Notes under the pieces: generated by a model
What the model was told of the DNA's origin: nothing
The model's input: the letters and a program-made list of their open reading frames with translations, nothing else
Database searches by the model: none
In this document: piece after piece, positions 2,679-12,623 of the stretch
Layout: each line of letters starts with the position of its first letter
Numbering within the stretch: the first letter of the stretch is position 1
UHGV virus genome: UHGV-0265509
From: a virus
DNA length: 12,623 bases
Reading direction: 5' to 3' (one strand)
Made by a program: the position numbers and the translations under genes

Positions 2679-3200
2679 CTACGGGTTAAAAGGTAACGGC
2701 TTGCAATCCCGCTTCTTCAACTCTTCTACTAACTCAGATAATGTACACCAACGTTTAAATTTGTTGTTGGCTTTAAAGTGACTGAGAATCTCCTCTACAC
2801 GCTCAATCGACCACTTCCCTTTACCCACGTTATCTAAATCTTTACGTAGCGAGAGCGTCTCAATGGTAAACGCTAACTCCGATGTGTCCGAGTGGTCGTA
2901 CAGTAGTCTTACTGGTGCAGATTGGTGAAGTGTAACACGCCACCCTGATTCCTTAGCCCAGTAAACATCTTTAATTCGACCACCGACGTCAATTACGGAA
3001 CTGATATAGCTCCACTCCTTTTCCAGTTTGTTCTCTTCAGCAGTTAATGCTTCTTCTAATCGTAAAGAATTAGGGGACGGAATCCACCAACCGTACTTAC
3101 CGTAATAATCATCTATTACAGTAATACCTTCGTAATACAGATATTGAGTTTTTGTATTAACGAATATTTCATCGCCAATTAAGACAGCGTTTATCTTCAT
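2679..3200 (-). CDS. hypothetical protein (173 aa)
   Basis: ATG at 3198-3200 in ATGA overlap with the upstream gene stop; uninterrupted ORF; function not recognisable. Confidence 0.55.
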   Translation of the reverse strand: MKINAVLIGDEIFVNTKTQYLYYEGITVIDDYYGKYGWWIPSPNSLRLEEALTAEENKLEKEWSYISSVIDVGGRIKDVYWAKESGWRVTLHQSAPVRLLYDHSDTSELAFTIETLSLRKDLDNVGKGKWSIERVEEILSHFKANNKFKRWCTLSELVEELKKRDCKPLPFNP

Positions 3201-3685
3201 CGTAAGTGCTTCCTGTAGAATAAGTCATACGCCTCCGATGTGGCGGTATCAATAGATCCTACTAAGGGAATAATATTCTTTTCGCTTATACCTGATGCCC
3301 AGGCCGCACGAGCAAAAGCTTGACCCGAACCCGTTGCCCAAACCGTGTTTTTATTCAGTACACGAGATTCAAATTTACCCTCTAGCAGTCCGAGCCAGTG
3401 TGTTTCCTCAGCTGTGTAAATGATAATCTGATCGTAAAACTGTTCTTTTTCGATAAGATCTTTAAATAACCCTTCAATCTTGGCTCGCTTTTCTTCAATC
3501 AAATATTTTTCTACTGCGACCATTATCGTATTTTTCCAGAGATCCGAGTCCAATACGCGTTCCCCAGTATAAACAACGAATTTGTTTTTGTACTTGTGTA
3601 ATTTAGGTGCCGCTTTAACTGTACCGCCGTAGTCAACCAACCGATCGGCTAAAATGTAATCGTTTGTTACTAAAACTGTTGTCAT
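3197..3685 (-). CDS. hypothetical protein (162 aa); possible HslV/proteasome-beta-like Ntn hydrolase
   Basis: Start taken at the internal ATG (3683-3685) preceded by GAGGTG SD and lying just downstream of a terminator, not the GTG at 3799 of the ORF track. N-terminus MTTVLVTNDY resembles HslV MTTIVSV (Thr nucleophile after Met removal); later TGSGQAFARAAWA resembles the HslV IGSGGPYAQAAARAL segment. Similarity judged by eye only. Confidence 0.4.
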   Translation of the reverse strand: MTTVLVTNDYILADRLVDYGGTVKAAPKLHKYKNKFVVYTGERVLDSDLWKNTIMVAVEKYLIEEKRAKIEGLFKDLIEKEQFYDQIIIYTAEETHWLGLLEGKFESRVLNKNTVWATGSGQAFARAAWASGISEKNIIPLVGSIDTATSEAYDLFYRKHLR

Positions 3686-3696
3686 CACACACCTCG

Positions 3697-3743: not shown

Positions 3744-4013
3744 TTAAATCTTACGACTGCTACCGTAGCAGCCACGACCTGCTGTCGTTTTCGCAGCACT
3801 GACAGGTGCTAACGCAGCCATCGTACCATCGGTCTTAACAATGTGTAAGTTACTTACGCGAGCCAGACCTTTAAAGGTAATCTTCACACCCTTGCGTAAA
3901 CTCTTCACATCGTAACCGTCGAGTTTGAGTGTTTTGATTTTCTCAGGCTTACCTTCTTCGTAATAAGAAAGAACATTACCCGCACGTTTCTCAACAATGT
4001 AAATCTTAGCCAT
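3744..4013 (-). CDS. hypothetical small Lys-rich protein (89 aa), own promoter and terminator
   Basis: ATG at 4011-4013 with SD GGAG 9 nt upstream; sigma70-like promoter upstream and strong terminator immediately downstream; function not recognisable. Confidence 0.55.
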   Translation of the reverse strand: MAKIYIVEKRAGNVLSYYEEGKPEKIKTLKLDGYDVKSLRKGVKITFKGLARVSNLHIVKTDGTMAALAPVSAAKTTAGRGCYGSSRKI

Positions 4014-4036: not shown

Positions 4037-4050
4037 GTGAGAATTCTCAC
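4037..4050. promoter_or_regulatory. perfect 14-bp palindrome GTGAGAATTCTCAC, candidate operator
   Basis: Perfect palindrome located between the predicted -10 hexamer and the SD of gene 3744..4013, i.e. around the expected transcription start. Confidence 0.3.
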
Positions 4051-4058
4051 ATAGATGA

Positions 4059-4087
4059 AATATATCTTAAGTTTTTTAGACTGTCAT
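4059..4087 (-). promoter_or_regulatory. sigma70-like promoter for gene 3744..4013
   Basis: On the minus strand: -35 ATGACA (plus 4082-4087), 17-nt spacer, -10 TATATT (plus 4059-4064). Sequence-only prediction. Confidence 0.35.
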
Positions 4088-4395
4088 TAACACAACGCAA
4101 TATTAACCGACTTACCAGGTAGCGGGAAATGCTGAAGCTCTATCGATAGAAGTTTCCTGTCAATAGTCAGTATTTCATCAACGTTGGGGGTAAGGCGGAA
4201 TACAGCACGCGGTAACGTGAAAGGCACGTTTGTCGAGCAGTTATTTAACAGCAACTGATCCTGAGAATAGTCAATTTCTACCACCCTCGCAATTACCCAA
4301 CGTTCGTGAATCTCGCCGCCTAGCGGTGCAGTTAGTGCCCGTTGCAAGCGCTGTAAATTCGTTTCGTCGGTATTAGTGTGGTTTTGGCTCGACAT
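4087..4395 (-). CDS. hypothetical protein (102 aa)
   Basis: ORF-track ORF 4087..4506 begins at a GTG inside the upstream gene; the internal ATG at 4393-4395 (MSSQNH..., weak GGGG SD) gives a 23-nt overlap with the upstream gene and is the more plausible start. Function unknown. Confidence 0.4.
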   Translation of the reverse strand: MSSQNHTNTDETNLQRLQRALTAPLGGEIHERWVIARVVEIDYSQDQLLLNNCSTNVPFTLPRAVFRLTPNVDEILTIDRKLLSIELQHFPLPGKSVNIALC

Positions 4396-4690
4396 AAGTT
4401 TCCCCAAACACGTATGCGGTTCCGGCTTCATTTGTCGGTTTAGCAACACACCACATCCATGCACCGGTTTCAGGGTTTTGCCAGGACAACAGAAGAGAAC
4501 CCTCACAGATTTCAGAGGTATCGACCTCAGGGTGGAACAACATGAATTCGTTCTCGTTGTCGTCTACTACGACGAATTGACCTTCTTCCACCCTTTCGAA
4601 CTTAGCAACACCTACTACAGTTGCTGGTTCCCCAACGGTAAATACCATTTCTTGTTTTGGTAAATCACGGTGAATCGCACTTAACCACAT
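4373..4690 (-). CDS. hypothetical protein (105 aa)
   Basis: ATG at 4688-4690 preceded by GAGGAA SD 8 nt upstream; first gene after the terminator at 4744-4785; function unknown. Confidence 0.5.
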   Translation of the reverse strand: MWLSAIHRDLPKQEMVFTVGEPATVVGVAKFERVEEGQFVVVDDNENEFMLFHPEVDTSEICEGSLLLSWQNPETGAWMWCVAKPTNEAGTAYVFGETYVEPKPH

Positions 4691-4743: not shown

Positions 4744-4785
4744 CGTAAAAATAAATTCTCCCTCTCTCCAAACGGAGAGAGGGAA
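4744..4785 (-). terminator. rho-independent terminator (same stem sequence as the 3713-3736 hairpin)
   Basis: 12-bp stem containing the identical CCCTCTCTCC / GGAGAGAGGG core (4760-4769 and 4774-4783), loop AAAC, followed on the minus strand by AAUUUAUUUUUACG; directly after the stop of gene 4789..5295. Confidence 0.8.
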
Positions 4786-4788
4786 GGT

Positions 4789-5295
4789 TTACAGTACGTT
4801 TTCTTCGCGATCGTCTACTAACACAGAAGTAATCACATAACGCGCTAAGCGACTACGTGCTTCTTCCGTTTCTTCTTCAGAAGGTAGCTGTTCGCCCGCA
4901 GGCGCACACAACGTTAGCCCAGACTCACGAAGCTGTTCGGCATAGTCTTCTACGGCTGTGTCGAACGTACCACGAATACCTGCTACCGCATCCATAATTT
5001 CGTCATTCGGAATAATGGATTCTTTTAGCACAGCGTGAGCATCTGTAGGCTCCACCATTTGCAGGTTCTGTTCTACCAGCAATGCCTGTTTCGCTAAGCT
5101 GTCGGTGATAAAGCAAGACAGAATCTTTTCGAAATCGTCTAACGAGAATTCGGTGTCTTCAGATGCCCCGGTAATCAATTGCCCGTAGCGATTAAAGAAT
5201 TCTTTACAACGTGTTTCGTAGTCAGCTTCTAAGTCGCGAACGCCGAGATCAAAATCGTGCTGCTCCAGCTGATTAAAATCCAGAGTCTCTTTCAT
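4789..5295 (-). CDS. strongly acidic hypothetical protein (168 aa); candidate DNA-mimic/anti-restriction protein
   Basis: ATG at 5293-5295 with SD GGAGA; by hand count roughly 39 Asp+Glu against roughly 14 Lys+Arg, including a C-terminal SEEETEEA tract; last gene of the Dam operon before the terminator. Function inferred only from composition and context. Confidence 0.55.
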   Translation of the reverse strand: MKETLDFNQLEQHDFDLGVRDLEADYETRCKEFFNRYGQLITGASEDTEFSLDDFEKILSCFITDSLAKQALLVEQNLQMVEPTDAHAVLKESIIPNDEIMDAVAGIRGTFDTAVEDYAEQLRESGLTLCAPAGEQLPSEEETEEARSRLARYVITSVLVDDREENVL

Positions 5296-5333
5296 CTCTA
5301 AGTCTCCAGTTAAGAGGTCATATTACCTGCTGG

Positions 5334-5561
5334 CTAGAGAGCCAACGTTAACCCGGTATGGGTTTGTACTGAACCAACACCATCGCGCGCTTTTGCTTTG
5401 GCGATAAGCTTGTCAATCACGCGTTGATGACTGCGGGTAATAACTTTACCCGGATAACCGATAATCAGCACGTTCTCGTCATTAATAACCGCCGAGAATT
5501 CGTTATCACCTGCGACATAAGTAATCTTTTTGTCTTTGGTTACAATACGTTTGATTTCCAT
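5334..5561 (-). CDS. hypothetical protein (75 aa)
   Basis: ATG at 5559-5561 with AGGA SD; 9 nt after the stop of the upstream gene; function unknown. Confidence 0.45.
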   Translation of the reverse strand: MEIKRIVTKDKKITYVAGDNEFSAVINDENVLIIGYPGKVITRSHQRVIDKLIAKAKARDGVGSVQTHTGLTLAL

Positions 5562-5570
5562 TCAATGTCC

Positions 5571-6344
5571 TTAAAAGATAAAATGGCCAGTTAATGCTTC
5601 TACTTCAACACCAGACATTGCTGGAGGTGCTGAGTATGGAAAAGTAAGACGCACGGTTGCACCCTTTAAATACGCAATACGGTAGTATGTGGTCAAGAGC
5701 GCAATCCCGTAAGTACAGTCGTTATAGAAGAAACCTTCGGTTGCAAACGTCTTTTCGTTGATTTTCGAATAGACTAAGATACCTTCAACTTTACCGTCTT
5801 TACGACAGCACAGCCCTTCAGCAGCCCCAATAGCTAACAATCCCAGGCAGTATGTATCTAAACTGACATTAACCACCTTAGGGATCGTAAACGTTTCTTC
5901 TAACGTTAGAGATTCAATATCAACTACATCAGGTAAATCGGTGCGAACTTCGGGTTCTTCAGTAAACGTCAGGTCATAGTCGATAGACGTCGGCTGCATA
6001 CCCAAATACACCATTAACTGGTCGCGACGTTTTAGGTCGTTGGCAGGGTATGTGACATCAAACACCTCCACTTTTAACAAACGTTTGAGTTGTGCGAAAT
6101 TAATTTTCTTCTTCGCAAACACAACGATTGCCGACATGTAGAAAAACTTACCGTCGGCACGACCGGAGAAGATTCCTTGTAGCTGATTCGTGTTCGAAAG
6201 AATGATAAAGGTCGGATCTTCAGACTCGCGAATGACGTCCTTTTCCAGTAACCCTTTCCGTACACGGGTTAGTGAAACCATTTTCCCGTCGACACCAATT
6301 GCTAAATGGTCATTACGATAATCGTGAATATCCACTATGCGCAT
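5571..6344 (-). CDS. hypothetical protein (257 aa), translationally coupled to Dam
   Basis: ATG at 6342-6344 shares one base with the dam stop codon (TAATG at 6342-6346); uninterrupted 257-codon ORF; no recognisable motif. Confidence 0.6.
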   Translation of the reverse strand: MRIVDIHDYRNDHLAIGVDGKMVSLTRVRKGLLEKDVIRESEDPTFIILSNTNQLQGIFSGRADGKFFYMSAIVVFAKKKINFAQLKRLLKVEVFDVTYPANDLKRRDQLMVYLGMQPTSIDYDLTFTEEPEVRTDLPDVVDIESLTLEETFTIPKVVNVSLDTYCLGLLAIGAAEGLCCRKDGKVEGILVYSKINEKTFATEGFFYNDCTYGIALLTTYYRIAYLKGATVRLTFPYSAPPAMSGVEVEALTGHFIF

Positions 6345-7159
6345 TAGAGCACTCCCAGTAATTCAGTCACCGTTTTCCGAGCAGCGCCAGACGCACCCAT
6401 ATAGCGACCGACCTCAATACTGCGCCACTCAAAACCGTAATAAATTTCTCGGGTGAGCAGGGTGTCTGCATTTGACAACACGACACTGTTGCCACGTTCC
6501 ACCTGCTGCTGTAGTAACTTGGCTAATTCTCGATGATCCGTTTGTGAGAATTCTTTACGGTGGTATTGCGCATGTTTCGCGGTATCCGATAACGGAATAT
6601 ACGGAGGATCAGCATAAATCACAGCATCCTCAGGCGTCCGCGCTAATACGGAACGAAAGTCTTCACAAACAATTTCCAGATAATCAACTTCTGCGCAACG
6701 TTTAGCCCAATCCCGAATTTCTTCTAACGGATAATAAACCCCATTCGGGTAACGTCCAAACGGAACATTGAACCCACCGCTACCGTTATAACGACACATC
6801 CCGTTATAACCGTGACGCATTAAGTATAAAAACATCGCTGCCCGTTCAACTTCTGACATTGTTTTACCGCTATTAAACAGCTCACGACGCTCCATATACT
6901 TTACAGTGGTATTACCGTCTAAGAACAACGGCTGCGACGCAGCGATCAGTTCTTCAGGCTGTTCACGCGCAACGCAAAGTAAGCGTATCAAATCAGGGTT
7001 AGAATCCGATAAAATATACCGGCTGTAATTCGTATTTAGGAAAACAGACCCTGCACCCACAAACGGTTCTACAAAGGTTGTACGTTTAGGTAAGACCTTT
7101 TGTAATTCCCCTAAAACACGTGTTTTCCCACCCATCCACTTAATAATTGGTTTCCGCAT
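6344..7159 (-). CDS. dam: DNA adenine methyltransferase, Dam family (GATC N6-adenine MTase)
   Basis: 271 aa, near-colinear with E. coli Dam by eye: N-terminal KWMGGK (Dam KWAGGK), AdoMet-binding FVEPFVGAGSVFLNT, LYLMRHGYNGMCRYN...FNVPFGRY, catalytic DPPY, C-terminal RKTVTELL. ATG at 7157-7159. Confidence 0.9.
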   Translation of the reverse strand: MRKPIIKWMGGKTRVLGELQKVLPKRTTFVEPFVGAGSVFLNTNYSRYILSDSNPDLIRLLCVAREQPEELIAASQPLFLDGNTTVKYMERRELFNSGKTMSEVERAAMFLYLMRHGYNGMCRYNGSGGFNVPFGRYPNGVYYPLEEIRDWAKRCAEVDYLEIVCEDFRSVLARTPEDAVIYADPPYIPLSDTAKHAQYHRKEFSQTDHRELAKLLQQQVERGNSVVLSNADTLLTREIYYGFEWRSIEVGRYMGASGAARKTVTELLGVL

Positions 7160-8138: not shown

Positions 8139-8185
8139 TTTAATTACTCCTTAAAAGGTCGTCTCAAAACAATACACTATAGCTG

Positions 8186-8220
8186 TAAAAACAAAAAAGA
8201 ATGGGGAACCGAAGTTCCCC
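8186..8220 (-). terminator. rho-independent terminator
   Basis: 7-bp GC-rich stem GGGGAAC / GTTCCCC (8203-8209 and 8214-8220); the RNA loop is UUCG, followed by AUUCUUUUUUGUUUUU on the minus strand. Confidence 0.8.
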
Positions 8221-8319
8221 TATATTAGTTAGCCGAACAGTCCCTCATCAAAATTCAAAGTGGGGGCTTCATGTAGTATTTCCATTGCCATGATTTTTAC
8301 TCCCGAAACGGTTCTTCAA

Positions 8320-8676
8320 TTAATCTCTGAAACCCAATGTTTGTTTAAACACGTTGCTGAGGTATCTCGGTTTTACTGTATTGATGTAATCTATAGCTGA
8401 CTCTGCAGTCACTTTAACCACACAGCGGCCGTTAGTGGACTCAAAGGTCACGCTGTATTTCAAACGCAACATGTCAGCAACTTTCATTATCGTCCCCAGC
8501 CCTAAACGTTCTGCGTGCTCGTTCTTAATTGAAGAAATAACTGACGGCGAAACTCTTGCTAGTTGAGCTATCTCACGTTGGGTAATTTTACCGCTCACCA
8601 AATGTCGAATGATGTAGCCTAGACGAATAACTAACTGTTCTTTTGCAATGGTGATGGTATTATGTTTATACGCCAT
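8320..8676 (-). CDS. XRE/Cro-CI family helix-turn-helix transcriptional regulator (118 aa)
   Basis: Start taken at ATG 8674-8676 (SD AGGA) rather than the GTG at 8730. HTH signature ITQREIAQLARVSPSVISSIKNEH is typical of XRE-family repressors. Confidence 0.6.
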   Translation of the reverse strand: MAYKHNTITIAKEQLVIRLGYIIRHLVSGKITQREIAQLARVSPSVISSIKNEHAERLGLGTIMKVADMLRLKYSVTFESTNGRCVVKVTAESAIDYINTVKPRYLSNVFKQTLGFRD

Positions 8677-8709
8677 GGTATCTAATCCTAATCTGTAAAC
8701 GTGTCGTAA

Positions 8710-8728
8710 GAGATTATATTGTAATCTC
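8710..8728. promoter_or_regulatory. inverted repeat GAGATTA-N5-TAATCTC overlapping a consensus -10 (TATAAT, minus strand, plus 8713-8718); candidate autoregulatory operator/promoter of the XRE gene
   Basis: 7-bp arms at 8710-8716 and 8722-8728; perfect TATAAT on the minus strand inside the repeat; the -35 is weak (ATGTTA). About 35 nt upstream of the XRE start. Confidence 0.3.
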
Positions 8729-8745
8729 ACTAAGGTAACATCTAT

Positions 8746-8789
8746 CTGAGAAAAAATAAAATATAGGTACCACCGTTGGGTGGTACCTA
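8746..8789 (-). terminator. rho-independent terminator
   Basis: 11-bp stem (8764-8774 and 8779-8789, core GGTACCACC / GGTGGTACC), loop of 4 nt, followed on the minus strand by UAUAUUUUAUUUUUUCUC; directly after the stop of the kinase gene. Confidence 0.8.
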
Positions 8790-8794
8790 AGCGG

Positions 8795-9468: not shown

Positions 9469-9486
9469 TAACAGTTGTAATAATTT

Positions 9487-11064: not shown

Positions 11065-11532
11065 TTAGATTTCCTTTATCATTTCCCTGCATTCGGTACG
11101 GAATCCCATTTTCTCATACAGGGAGATAGCTTTAACGTTGTTGTCTAACACATCCAGACTCATCCAACCACAGCCTTTGGACTTTCCGTATTCACGGACT
11201 TTGTCCATAAGCGCACGACCTACCCCTTGAGAACGTGCTTCGGGAATCACGTAGTAGTTCCCAATATAAACAAATGTGTCCTTTGAGCAAGAGCCCATTG
11301 AAAACGTCATGAAGCCCAAAAGTTGTTCGTCGCCATCCACCGCACACGCACAGAGATAATCTTGAGGCCAAATCTCTTCTAAGTGTTCAATTGGGTTGAA
11401 CGTGTCGCGTCCGGTTAACTGACTAATACGCACTTTCTCTTCTGCGAACAGCATGTTGTGCAGTTTGAGTACCTGGTCGCCGTATAACTTTCCGTATTTA
11501 CTGTCGGGTTTGAGAATAATAGTGATACGCAT
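11065..11532 (-). CDS. GNAT family N-acetyltransferase (155 aa)
   Basis: ATG at 11530-11532 in TAATG overlap with the upstream gene, SD GAGG; canonical GNAT motif A (YVIPEARSQGVGRALMDKVREYGKSKG) and motif B-like LYEKMGF. Confidence 0.8.
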   Translation of the reverse strand: MRITIILKPDSKYGKLYGDQVLKLHNMLFAEEKVRISQLTGRDTFNPIEHLEEIWPQDYLCACAVDGDEQLLGFMTFSMGSCSKDTFVYIGNYYVIPEARSQGVGRALMDKVREYGKSKGCGWMSLDVLDNNVKAISLYEKMGFRTECREMIKEI

Positions 11533-12623
11533 TATTTAACCTCAATCAGCGACAATCTGCACCATTCCAGTAAGCCCTCCGCAACGCGCACTAACGTGGT
11601 AGTAAACGCATCTTCTAAACGCAGCGCGTTTTTATACCGAACGGTAGCATCGCGTAACTCACGACCATCTAACGACTTCAGCTCTTTTTTCATTCGCTGA
11701 ACTTCATCGTAAATACCAGTATAACCAACACTACGTCGTTTCGTACCACGCTGACGTAACGCTCGGATAATGTTTCTAACAGCATCGAGAGCTGAACCGA
11801 TCTCGTGCAAGTTCAGCGATTTGATTGTGTGGCCAAAATCACCATCGCGGGCAATCGCCCACTCAATCTTACCGCTGTCGTGTTCAACGACCACCACGTT
11901 ACCAGGCCACGGATACGCTTTCACCGTTTTAAACGGATCAATAATACCGAACAGTCCTGCGCTTCGTTTAATCGCCCAGCTCGTTGACCGTCCCACTTTC
12001 TCCAAACCGCTCTCGGTAACTTTCTTGCTCTTACCGATAATAGTGCGTGTTTTAACGGTATACTCGTTGACCATCGCATCCATTGCGCTCAGGTTCTTAC
12101 TGAACTCAATACACGCTTTTACGTTAGGCTTGTCTTCTAAACAAACTTTGGTTGTCCAACTTCCCGTGTCGCAGTCGACCGGTTTTAAAGTGTCCTTGAT
12201 GCCGAGTAAACTTAGCTTTGCGGTTAACTTTTCCAGTTTGCGTTCTAAGGTCGTCGCTTTAGACGTCGCTTCTTTTAATTCCTTAATGACTTCTTTACCG
12301 GCGGCTTCCGCGAAGTCGACAAAACGTAACGCAAGTTGCTTAGAATGTTTACCTGCGAAGTTTCCGGTTGCCTTAGCCCCCGCTATCGCTGCCTTTCCAG
12401 CAATACGACCAGCCCCTTTAACCGCTCTGCCGGTCGCGCGTGCGACCGCTTTACCTACCCCTGCGTAAGGCTCAGTGTCCGCAACAAATTGCGCGCGTTC
12501 CATCATCGCTGCGGACTCTAGCGCAACCTGCACATCGTCTAAAACCCACCGTTTTCGGATAGCGACAATCGCCGGATAATTGTCTTTAACATTAAGCGAC
12601 TCTAACGCGACCAATCGATCGTA
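11532..12623 (-). CDS. hypothetical protein, 5'-partial (at least 363 codons in window), Ala/Gly/Lys-rich segment
   Basis: The reading frame stays open to the window edge (12623); the ORF-track start at 12612-12614 is a TTG, so the true start is probably outside the window. Contains the low-complexity tract AVARATGRAVKGAGRIAGKAAIAGAKATGNFAGK; function unknown. Confidence 0.55.
   Translation of the reverse strand, partial: YDRLVALESLNVKDNYPAIVAIRKRWVLDDVQVALESAAMMERAQFVADTEPYAGVGKAVARATGRAVKGAGRIAGKAAIAGAKATGNFAGKHSKQLALRFVDFAEAAGKEVIKELKEATSKATTLERKLEKLTAKLSLLGIKDTLKPVDCDTGSWTTKVCLEDKPNVKACIEFSKNLSAMDAMVNEYTVKTRTIIGKSKKVTESGLEKVGRSTSWAIKRSAGLFGIIDPFKTVKAYPWPGNVVVVEHDSGKIEWAIARDGDFGHTIKSLNLHEIGSALDAVRNIIRALRQRGTKRRSVGYTGIYDEVQRMKKELKSLDGRELRDATVRYKNALRLEDAFTTTLVRVAEGLLEWCRLSLIEVK

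What the first reader, a model, noticed from the sequence alone, without database searches (positions are those of the whole stretch)
4789..5295. Strongly acidic 168-aa protein at the end of the Dam operon: DNA-mimic candidate
By hand count the protein has roughly 39 acidic and 14 basic residues, with acidic patches spread along its length. Size and charge are in the range of known DNA-mimic anti-restriction proteins (Ocr and ArdA types). Its co-transcription with a Dam methyltransferase fits an anti-restriction theme. No sequence similarity to Ocr or ArdA was established.
Basis: inference. Interest (0 to 1): 0.55.

Follow-up and report, generated by a model that had tools for sequence, protein, structure and literature searches.

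The report
Orphan acidic jumbo-phage protein, function unproven
The strongly acidic 168-residue protein is real, conserved and under selection in one clade of giant nucleus-forming phages, but nothing ties it to any known DNA-mimic family, so "DNA mimic" remains an untested guess.

Summary
ORF 4789-5295(-) encodes 168 aa with 39 acidic and 14 basic residues, pI 4.13 and net charge -25. It is the last gene of a five-gene unit (GNAT, Dam, 257 aa, 75 aa, acidic) that ends in a strong terminator.

It is a real gene: dN/dS is 0.05. It belongs to a small orphan family (PHROG 8221, SPN3US gp109). That family occurs only in SPN3US-like jumbo phages of Enterobacterales, a host range resembling that of the PhuZ-less chimallivirus clade. 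All 20 aligned members keep net charge -18 to -25.

An AlphaFold model (pLDDT 83) is an all-helical protein with acidic solvent faces. It also has a conserved, low-confidence N-terminal motif, QHDFDL..R.

No sequence or fold similarity was found to Ocr, ArdA, Gam or any solved or viral structure.

The link to Dam is synteny rather than dependence. Cronobacter phage CR5 keeps the acidic gene but has no detectable Dam anywhere in its genome.

My best guess, at about 0.3, is an electrostatic decoy for a nucleic-acid-binding protein of unknown identity. A chaperone or adaptor role is almost as likely. Specific anti-type-I-restriction activity is possible but unsupported. Interest is modest.

The parts
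4789..5295 (-). CDS of the acidic protein (168 aa, pI 4.13, net -25). Member of PHROG 8221, orthologue of SPN3US gp109.
   Evidence: phrog_8221, E 2.3e-56; dN/dS 0.05
5236..5280 (-). Codons 6-20: conserved N-terminal motif D-F-x-Q-L-x-Q-H-D-F-D-L-x-V-R. H13 and L17 are invariant; Q9, F15, D16 and R20 are at least 90% conserved. The model shows coil with low confidence here. Candidate partner-binding linear motif.
   Evidence: alignment; pLDDT 42-66 for residues 1-20
4801..4860 (-). Codons 146-165: conserved C-terminal amphipathic helix plus acidic cap (A-R-x-R-L-A-R-Y-V-I-T-S-V-L-V-D-D-R-E-E).
5304..5307 (-). Shine-Dalgarno GGAG, 8 nt upstream of the ATG.
   Evidence: read directly from the sequence
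4758..4785 (-). Intrinsic terminator: 12-bp stem, 7 G-C pairs, GUUU loop, then a U-rich tail. It starts 4 nt after the stop codon. The same arrangement follows the orthologue in SPN3US and Erwinia phage pEa_SNUABM_6.
   Evidence: (-23.6 kcal/mol, z -5.1)
5334..5561 (-). 75-aa gp108-like protein (PHROG 7896, pI 9.6). It lies immediately upstream of the acidic gene in every lineage examined except the CR5 group. It is C-terminally shorter than its homologues.
5571..6344 (-). 257-aa gp106-like hypothetical protein (PHROG 9941). This is a variable slot of the unit.
6344..7159 (-). Dam-family D12 N6-adenine DNA methyltransferase.
   Evidence: PF02086, 6e-57; TIGR00571, 252 bits
7140..8138 (-). 332-aa protein with a C-terminal GNAT acetyltransferase domain. 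First gene of the unit.
8181..8220 (-). Upstream boundary of the unit: terminator hairpin at 8220-8203, followed by a T run and TTTTTACAGCT (8191-8181). This promoter-like motif recurs after terminators in the window and in SPN3US.
   Evidence: inference; no transcript data

Best explanation
The gene encodes a soluble, non-virion, all-alpha protein. Its conserved, solvent-facing carboxylates would make it an electrostatic decoy, meaning a nucleic-acid-like surface for a basic DNA- or RNA-binding protein. Partner specificity would come from the conserved N-terminal QHDFDL..R motif and the C-terminal amphipathic helix. The target is unknown. It could be a host nucleoid protein, a polymerase or nuclease, or a cytoplasmic DNA-sensing defence protein, and need not be a type I restriction enzyme. 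The gene is transcribed as the last gene of a GNAT-Dam unit in SPN3US-like nucleus-forming jumbo phages.

Shown here: gene reality, conserved acidity, helical architecture, the operon boundary, the family's restricted distribution, and the lack of homology to any characterised family.

Inferred: the decoy mechanism, the existence of a partner, and the timing of expression.
For: - Net charge is -25 and pI 4.13.
- All 20 family members keep net charge -18 to -25 despite identities as low as 24%.
- 26 alignment columns are at least 60% acidic.
- dN/dS is 0.05.
- The AlphaFold model (pLDDT 82.8, pTM 0.63) has five helices.
- In four of the five helices the acidic residues lie 145-177 degrees from the hydrophobic face. 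Helix 98-125 carries 8 acidic residues along one face.
- The invariant N-terminal motif lies in a low-confidence coil, as expected for a segment that folds on a partner.
- SPN3US gp109 is not among the virion proteins listed in PMC5105663. The neighbouring genes are non-structural: thymidylate (TMP) kinase, HTH, GNAT, Dam.
- Structurally unrelated DNA mimics are known to act on many different DNA-binding targets, including cytoplasmic methylation-linked defences (PMC12871103). So lack of homology does not exclude this mode of action.
Against: - There is no positive evidence of mimicry.
- No sequence or fold similarity to Ocr, ArdA, Gam or any other solved structure.
- Charge density is only about 60% of Ocr's.
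- Phosphate-like spacing of the carboxylates could not be examined because no coordinates are available.
- The oligomeric state is unknown.
- The phage family shields its replicating DNA inside a protein nucleus.
- The promoter-like motif of this unit differs from the AT-rich 23-nt motif found upstream of two other genes in the window. The unit may therefore not be immediate-early.
- Acidic helical proteins in phages are also often scaffolds or chaperones.
Confidence: 0.3

Rival explanations
1. Acidic chaperone or adaptor for a phage protein. The protein would bind and neutralise a basic phage protein, or bridge two phage proteins through its N-terminal motif and C-terminal helix. Candidates include the adjacent gp108-like protein, an internal head protein, or a DNA-binding replication or packaging factor. 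In this reading it has no role against host defences.
For: - The gp108-like gene is directly upstream in the window, SPN3US, Machinavirus, the distant metagenomic lineages L004-L006 and 12 IMG/VR loci.
- The two families occur in a very similar number and host spread of phage records, 62 and 60.
- The most conserved positions are hydrophobic or belong to short motifs rather than charges.
- The gene is a stable, syntenic clade gene under strong purifying selection. It does not look like a fast-turnover accessory gene.
Against: - gp108-like proteins are not consistently basic: pI is 9.6 in the window but 6.7 in SPN3US.
- In CR5 the two genes are separated by a 9-kb insertion.
- No homology to any chaperone family was found.
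Confidence: 0.27
2. One reading: a functional analogue of Ocr or ArdA. It would mimic B-form DNA, block type I R-M and/or BREX methyltransferase-nuclease complexes, and complement the co-transcribed Dam in an anti-restriction module.
For: - By my own recollection, size and net charge are in the ArdA range; ArdA itself was not examined here. The all-helical acidic architecture is grossly Ocr-like.
- Dam lies upstream in the same unit in the window and in all 17 related loci other than CR5 that were compared.
Against: - No Pfam PF08684 or PF07275 match for any member.
- hhalign against Ocr gives 0.7%.
- No Ocr or ArdA among the listed fold matches.
- The model is all-alpha, unlike the alpha/beta three-domain ArdA (the ArdA fold is from my own knowledge).
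- CR5 has the acidic gene but no Dam at all.
- The family is absent from conjugative plasmids. The only 'plasmid' hit is a 222-kb phage genome.
- It is a mid-genome, last-in-operon gene in a nucleus-forming phage clade.
Confidence: 0.1
3. Scaffolding or prohead-core type assembly protein: acidic, helical, and removed before maturation.
For: Acidic all-helical small proteins are typical scaffolds (general knowledge). A phiKZ_IP-like gene lies in the same window at 11532-12614.
Against: - The SPN3US scaffold candidate identified in proheads is gp22 (PMC7411985).
- gp109 is named in none of the SPN3US papers held and is absent from the virion tables of PMC5105663.
- Candidate A-x-E protease sites are not conserved in the alignment.
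- The gene context is non-structural.
Confidence: 0.06
4. Regulatory or specificity subunit of the neighbouring Dam methyltransferase or GNAT acetyltransferase.
For: Same transcription unit in most lineages.
Against: CR5 retains the protein at 40% identity with a still acidic composition, yet has no Dam in its genome. The intervening genes vary between lineages.
Confidence: 0.05

Closest known systems
SPN3US gp109 (SPN3US_0109 / ACQ60_gp157) and PHROG 8221
   Same: Full-length homologue: 44% identity, with an E 2e-56 match to the PHROG profile. It has the same position after the gp108-like gene and before the terminator and gp110-like gene, and the same acidity, net -23.
   Different: Nothing functional is known. 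It is annotated as hypothetical in every record seen, and no held paper mentions it.
T7 Ocr (gp0.3), DNA-mimic inhibitor of type I R-M and BREX
   Same: A small, helical, very acidic phage protein. The proposed mode of action, an electrostatic decoy, would be the same kind.
   Different: - No sequence similarity: hhalign 0.7%, no Pfam hit.
- No fold match.
- Net charge per residue is -0.15 against -0.24.
- It is not a first-entering gene.
- The carrier phages are nucleus-forming.
ArdA (PF07275), the anti-restriction DNA mimic of conjugative elements
   Same: By my own recollection, ArdA is of similar length (about 165-170 aa) and similar net charge. ArdA itself was not examined here.
   Different: - No Pfam match.
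- The model is all-alpha, whereas ArdA is an elongated alpha/beta three-domain protein (own knowledge).
- The family is confined to jumbo phages and is not found on conjugative plasmids.
Other phage acidic decoys with unrelated folds (lambda Gam, T4 Arn, T7 gp5.9, SPO1 Gp44/Gp46, phiKZ Dip)
   Same: They show that acidic phage proteins with unrelated folds can block nucleases, nucleoid proteins, RNA polymerase or RNase E. The candidate would fit this functional class as a new fold.

Membership tests
PHROG 8221 / SPN3US gp109 family | Full-length profile match | tested here: met
   phrog_8221 E 2.3e-56, residues 3-166 on profile positions 2-158 of 161. tblastn gives 62 phage records at over 80% coverage.
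PHROG 8221 / SPN3US gp109 family | Conserved genomic position: after the gp108-like gene, last gene before a terminator | tested here: met
Ocr (PF08684) | Sequence homology to T7 gp0.3 | tested here: not met
   No Pfam hit at E <= 1 in any of 20 members. hhalign probability is 0.7%.
Ocr (PF08684) | Ocr fold | tested here: not met
Ocr (PF08684) | Carboxylates arranged like the phosphates of bent B-DNA on a dimer | not testable with these tools
The only finding is that acidic residues lie on the solvent faces of the helices.
Ocr (PF08684) | Inhibits type I R-M or BREX | not testable with these tools
   Requires an in vivo or in vitro assay.
ArdA (PF07275) | Sequence homology | tested here: not met
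   No Pfam hit.
ArdA (PF07275) | Three-domain alpha/beta elongated fold | tested here: not met
   The model contains five helices and no strands. ArdA is not among the listed fold matches.
ArdA (PF07275) | Carried in the leading regions of conjugative elements | tested here: not met
   The only hit in 72,556 plasmid records is a 222-kb non-mobilizable 'plasmid' that is a jumbo-phage genome.
GatC (PF02686) | Profile match above the Pfam gathering score, or profile-profile support | tested here: not met
   Five of 20 members give sub-threshold hits, the best at 22.8 bits against a cut-off of 23. hhalign of the family against six GatC sequences gives 0.9%.
Phage scaffolding / prohead core proteins (functional class) | Present in proheads, absent from or processed in mature heads | tested here: inconclusive
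   Literature only. gp22 is the SPN3US scaffold candidate. gp109 is not named in the held SPN3US papers. Supplementary proteome tables were not examined, and Weintraub 2019 is not held.

The most novel reading that the evidence does not exclude
The family is a new-fold nucleic-acid mimic whose carriers resemble, in host range, the PhuZ-less clade of nucleus-forming jumbo phages of Enterobacterales. It would act in the cytoplasm, outside the phage nucleus. There it would disarm a DNA-binding host factor: a nucleoid protein, a nuclease, or a methylation- or nucleotide-sensing defence of the kind recently shown to be blocked by diverse DNA mimics. It would use its N-terminal QHDFDL motif as a specificity hook. 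That would show that even genome-shielding phages still need DNA decoys.
Probability: 0.2. Interest if true: 0.6.

Novelty: new variant of a known kind. Interest (0 to 1): 0.3.

Why it matters
If the decoy reading is correct, this would add a structurally new family to the DNA/RNA-mimic class. It would also show what nucleus-forming phages still have to neutralise outside their protective shell, which is a current question in jumbo-phage biology.

If it is instead a phage-internal chaperone or adaptor, it is an ordinary clade-specific gene.

In either case the present evidence does not go beyond a conserved orphan acidic protein. SPN3US has an amber-mutant genetic system and Asesino has been used for GFP localisation, so the family's function is directly testable.

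Tried and rejected
- **Near-identical DNA in 50,697 phage records:** none. Only protein-level relatives were found.
- **Pfam, NCBIfam and PDB sequence searches:** nothing significant. The NAP hit (E 0.024) and the Cas7-paralog hit (E 0.0011 overall, per-domain 0.43) were judged to be chance or compositional matches.
- **First AlphaFold run:** 13 sequences gave an unusable model, pLDDT 57. Adding 7 distant members raised it to 82.8.
- **P0021:** this 3000-aa hit from the exhaustive search is a tandem-repeat artefact.
- **TATGAC upstream of the gene:** a conserved TATGAC was considered as a phiKZ-type late promoter. In pEa_SNUABM_6 it overlaps the end of the preceding gene, so it was dropped.
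- **N-terminal QHDFDL as a clamp-binding motif:** it was considered as a beta-clamp-binding hexapeptide (Q-x-x-L-x-L type). The match is only partial, the invariant His is unexplained, and it was not pursued.
- **Prohead-protease A-x-E sites:** present in the window protein but not conserved in the alignment.
- **Literature:** no held paper mentions SPN3US gp109. The infection-proteome paper by Weintraub et al. 2019 is not held.

Full report
**1. Observation**

The ORF at 4789-5295 on the minus strand is present as described: ATG start, 168 codons. A GGAG lies 8 nt upstream of the start. The protein has 16 Asp, 23 Glu, 5 Lys and 9 Arg, with pI 4.13 and net charge -25.3.

It is the most acidic of the 23 minus-strand ORFs of the window. 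Its orthologues are the most acidic proteins of the corresponding regions in four relatives, about 2.5 sd below the mean of 101 neighbouring proteins.

**2. What the window is**

There is no near-identical DNA among deposited phages. The encoded proteins place the window in the SPN3US-like jumbo phages (Seoulvirus, Machinavirus, Derbicusvirus, Asesino, phiEaH2, Wellington and others).

- The exact protein is encoded on a 225.5-kb metagenomic scaffold.
- Relatives at 86-88% identity occur in human-gut metagenomes and in a Salmonella Dublin assembly.
- Another relative is deposited as a 222-kb circular 'plasmid' of Enterobacter ludwigii.
- The host genera of the carrier phages are Erwinia, Salmonella, Escherichia, Cronobacter and Proteus. 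They resemble those of the PhuZ-less clade of the nucleus-forming family Chimalliviridae, described around Erwinia phage Asesino (PMC11724907). Asesino itself carries a homologue.

**3. Transcription unit**

On the gene strand there are terminator-like hairpins at 8789-8764 and 8220-8203. No convincing terminator follows until a 12-bp G+C-rich hairpin with a U tail at 4785-4758, 4 nt after the stop codon of the acidic gene. That hairpin folds at -23.6 kcal/mol, z = -5.1.

The unit is therefore GNAT (8138-7140), Dam (7159-6344), a 257-aa protein, a 75-aa protein and the acidic protein. Adjacent genes overlap or are separated by 9-38 nt.

The same terminator, followed by a T run and TTTAC(A/G), follows the orthologue in SPN3US and in pEa_SNUABM_6. 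'Last gene of the Dam operon' is thus supported by sequence, but no transcript data exist.

The promoter-like motif of this unit is a T run plus TTTTTACAGCT at 8191-8181. It differs from a 23-nt motif, AGATAnATnT-N7-GTGAGA, found twice in the window against zero expected, and conserved in 14 related loci. The two motifs may mark different temporal classes. This is inference only.

**4. The family**

The protein matches PHROG 8221 (unknown function) over its whole length and is the orthologue of SPN3US gp109 at 44% identity.

- An exhaustive HMM search of 1.84 billion representative proteins found only 15 hits. One of them is a tandem-repeat artefact.
- The family is therefore small and confined to these phages.
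- A 20-sequence alignment spanning 24-89% identity shows invariant H13, L17, Y37, E56, P96, Y118, L122 and V154.
- It also shows a conserved N-terminal motif (D-F-x-Q-L-x-Q-H-D-F-D-L-x-V-R) and a conserved C-terminal segment (R-L-A-R-Y-V-I-T-S-V-L-V-D-D-R-E-E).
- Every member is strongly acidic, with net charge -18 to -25.
- Ten columns are at least 90% acidic and 26 are at least 60% acidic.
- Against 86%-identical relatives, dN/dS is 0.05.

The acidity is thus a selected property of a real protein.

**5. Structure**

AlphaFold2 with 13 sequences failed, at pLDDT 57. With 20 sequences it gave pLDDT 82.8 and pTM 0.63.

- The model has five helices: 26-42, 52-75, 83-91, 98-125 and 140-160.
- It has a low-confidence N-terminus that contains the invariant motif.
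- It has a variable acidic loop at 126-139, which is deleted in the most distant members.
- Helical-wheel arithmetic places the acidic residues 145-177 degrees from the hydrophobic face in four of the five helices. Helix 98-125 has eight acidic residues along one face.

I could not inspect coordinates. The key question of DNA-like charge geometry therefore remains open.

**6. Tests of the DNA-mimic / anti-restriction reading**

- Ocr and ArdA Pfam models do not match any of the 20 members at E <= 1.
- hhalign of the family against T7 Ocr gives 0.7%.
- Ocr is denser in charge: -0.24 against -0.15 per residue.
- The family is absent from genuine plasmids.

The Dam linkage is conserved in the window, SPN3US, Machinavirus and the distant metagenomic lineages L004-L006 (27-31% identity). 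It is also conserved in 12 IMG/VR loci and in the Enterobacter record. However, this whole region is syntenic across the clade.

Cronobacter phage CR5 breaks the link. It keeps the acidic gene (40% identity, still the most acidic local protein). The gene is separated from the gp108-like gene by a 9-kb insertion. tblastn with three Dam queries finds nothing better than E 0.5 across the complete 224-kb genome, and no methyltransferase is annotated there. The protein's function therefore does not depend on the phage Dam.

Finally, the carriers belong to a family that encloses replicating DNA in a protein nucleus that excludes host nucleases (abstracts). This reduces the expected benefit of a classical type I R-M inhibitor. 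Nucleus-forming phages do nevertheless carry additional anti-defence proteins (PMC13309987). Diverse DNA mimics also block cytoplasmic, methylation-linked defences (PMC12871103).

**7. Other leads**

- Sub-threshold GatC hits in one subclade were not confirmed by profile-profile comparison.
- A scaffold role is unlikely. The SPN3US scaffold candidate is gp22, and gp109 is not mentioned in the virion or prohead papers held.
- The gp108-like gene is the most constant neighbour and is a candidate partner. Its charge is not conserved, and CR5 separates the two genes.

**8. Verdict**

- The best-supported statement is that this is a conserved, clade-specific, non-virion, all-helical acidic protein of an orphan fold, with a probable partner-binding N-terminal motif.
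- I rate an electrostatic-decoy mechanism against some nucleic-acid-binding protein as the single most likely mode of action, at about 0.3.
- A phage-internal chaperone or adaptor role is nearly as likely, at about 0.27.
- The specific Ocr/ArdA-like anti-restriction role is at about 0.1.
- Interest is modest at 0.3. The family is already catalogued as hypothetical, and the evidence adds context rather than function. It is, however, a clean, testable candidate in phages with working genetics.

Noticed in passing
window 4045-4067 (-) and 8725-8747 (-): The 23-nt motif AGATAnATnT-N7-GTGAGA occurs twice against zero expected by chance. It lies upstream of the 89-aa gene (3744-4013) and of the HTH gene, next to GTGAGA..TCTCAC palindromes. 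It is conserved at the equivalent positions in 14 related loci, including SPN3US. It is a candidate promoter, or an operator for the adjacent HTH protein.
   Followed up: partly
window 8181-8191, 9473-9480, 4745-4751, 2665-2675 (all -): A second promoter-like element, a T run followed by TTTAC(A/G), often TTACARCT, sits directly after terminator hairpins and upstream of the GNAT-Dam unit, the TMP kinase gene, the gp110-like gene and the 154-aa gene. SPN3US and pEa_SNUABM_6 show the same arrangement. The statistics are weak: 3 against 1.0 expected for the 8-mer.
   Followed up: partly
window 4373-4690 (-): The next gene downstream encodes a second acidic protein: 105 aa, pI 4.37, net -12, PHROG 9789. 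It has its own promoter-like motif. It is 69% identical to SPN3US gp110, so it is much better conserved than the acidic protein under study (44%).
   Followed up: no
window 8139-8794 compared with L008 5891-7157 and L014: The otherwise 98-100% identical scaffolds carry an extra 223-aa gene between the HTH gene and the GNAT gene. Their HTH protein is only about 56% identical to the window's. This looks like a local mosaic replacement or deletion.
   Followed up: partly
window 5334-5561 (-): The gp108-like protein is 75 aa here and in the closest relatives, but 88-104 aa in other lineages. The shared core ends in an invariant K-A-K-x-R-D-G motif. The C-terminal 15-25 residues are missing after a TAG stop.
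   Followed up: partly
NZ_CP134650.1 (L026); P0003: A relative of this phage (protein 87% identical) is deposited as a 222-kb circular non-mobilizable 'plasmid' of Enterobacter ludwigii from a gull cloaca. Another is in a Salmonella Dublin assembly. These are jumbo lytic-type phage genomes hidden in bacterial assemblies, and they give a clue to the host.
   Followed up: partly
L013 (Cronobacter phage CR5 96.8-106.5 kb): CR5 has a 9-kb insertion between the gp108-like and acidic genes. It includes thymidylate synthase, MazG and an Arn.3-like hypothetical protein. CR5 has no detectable Dam anywhere in its genome.
   Followed up: yes
window 3197-3689 (-): The product is weakly similar (26% over 178 aa, E 3e-11) to the CR5 gene annotated as 'peptidase HslV family'. 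CR5 also encodes an HslU-domain ATPase nearby. No Pfam hit was obtained for the window protein.
   Followed up: no
window 4087-4506 and 8320-8730 (-): The mechanical ORF starts are too far upstream. The gp111-like gene probably starts near 4396 (102 aa in the scaffold's gene calls). The HTH gene probably starts at the ATG at 8676 (119 aa).
   Followed up: partly
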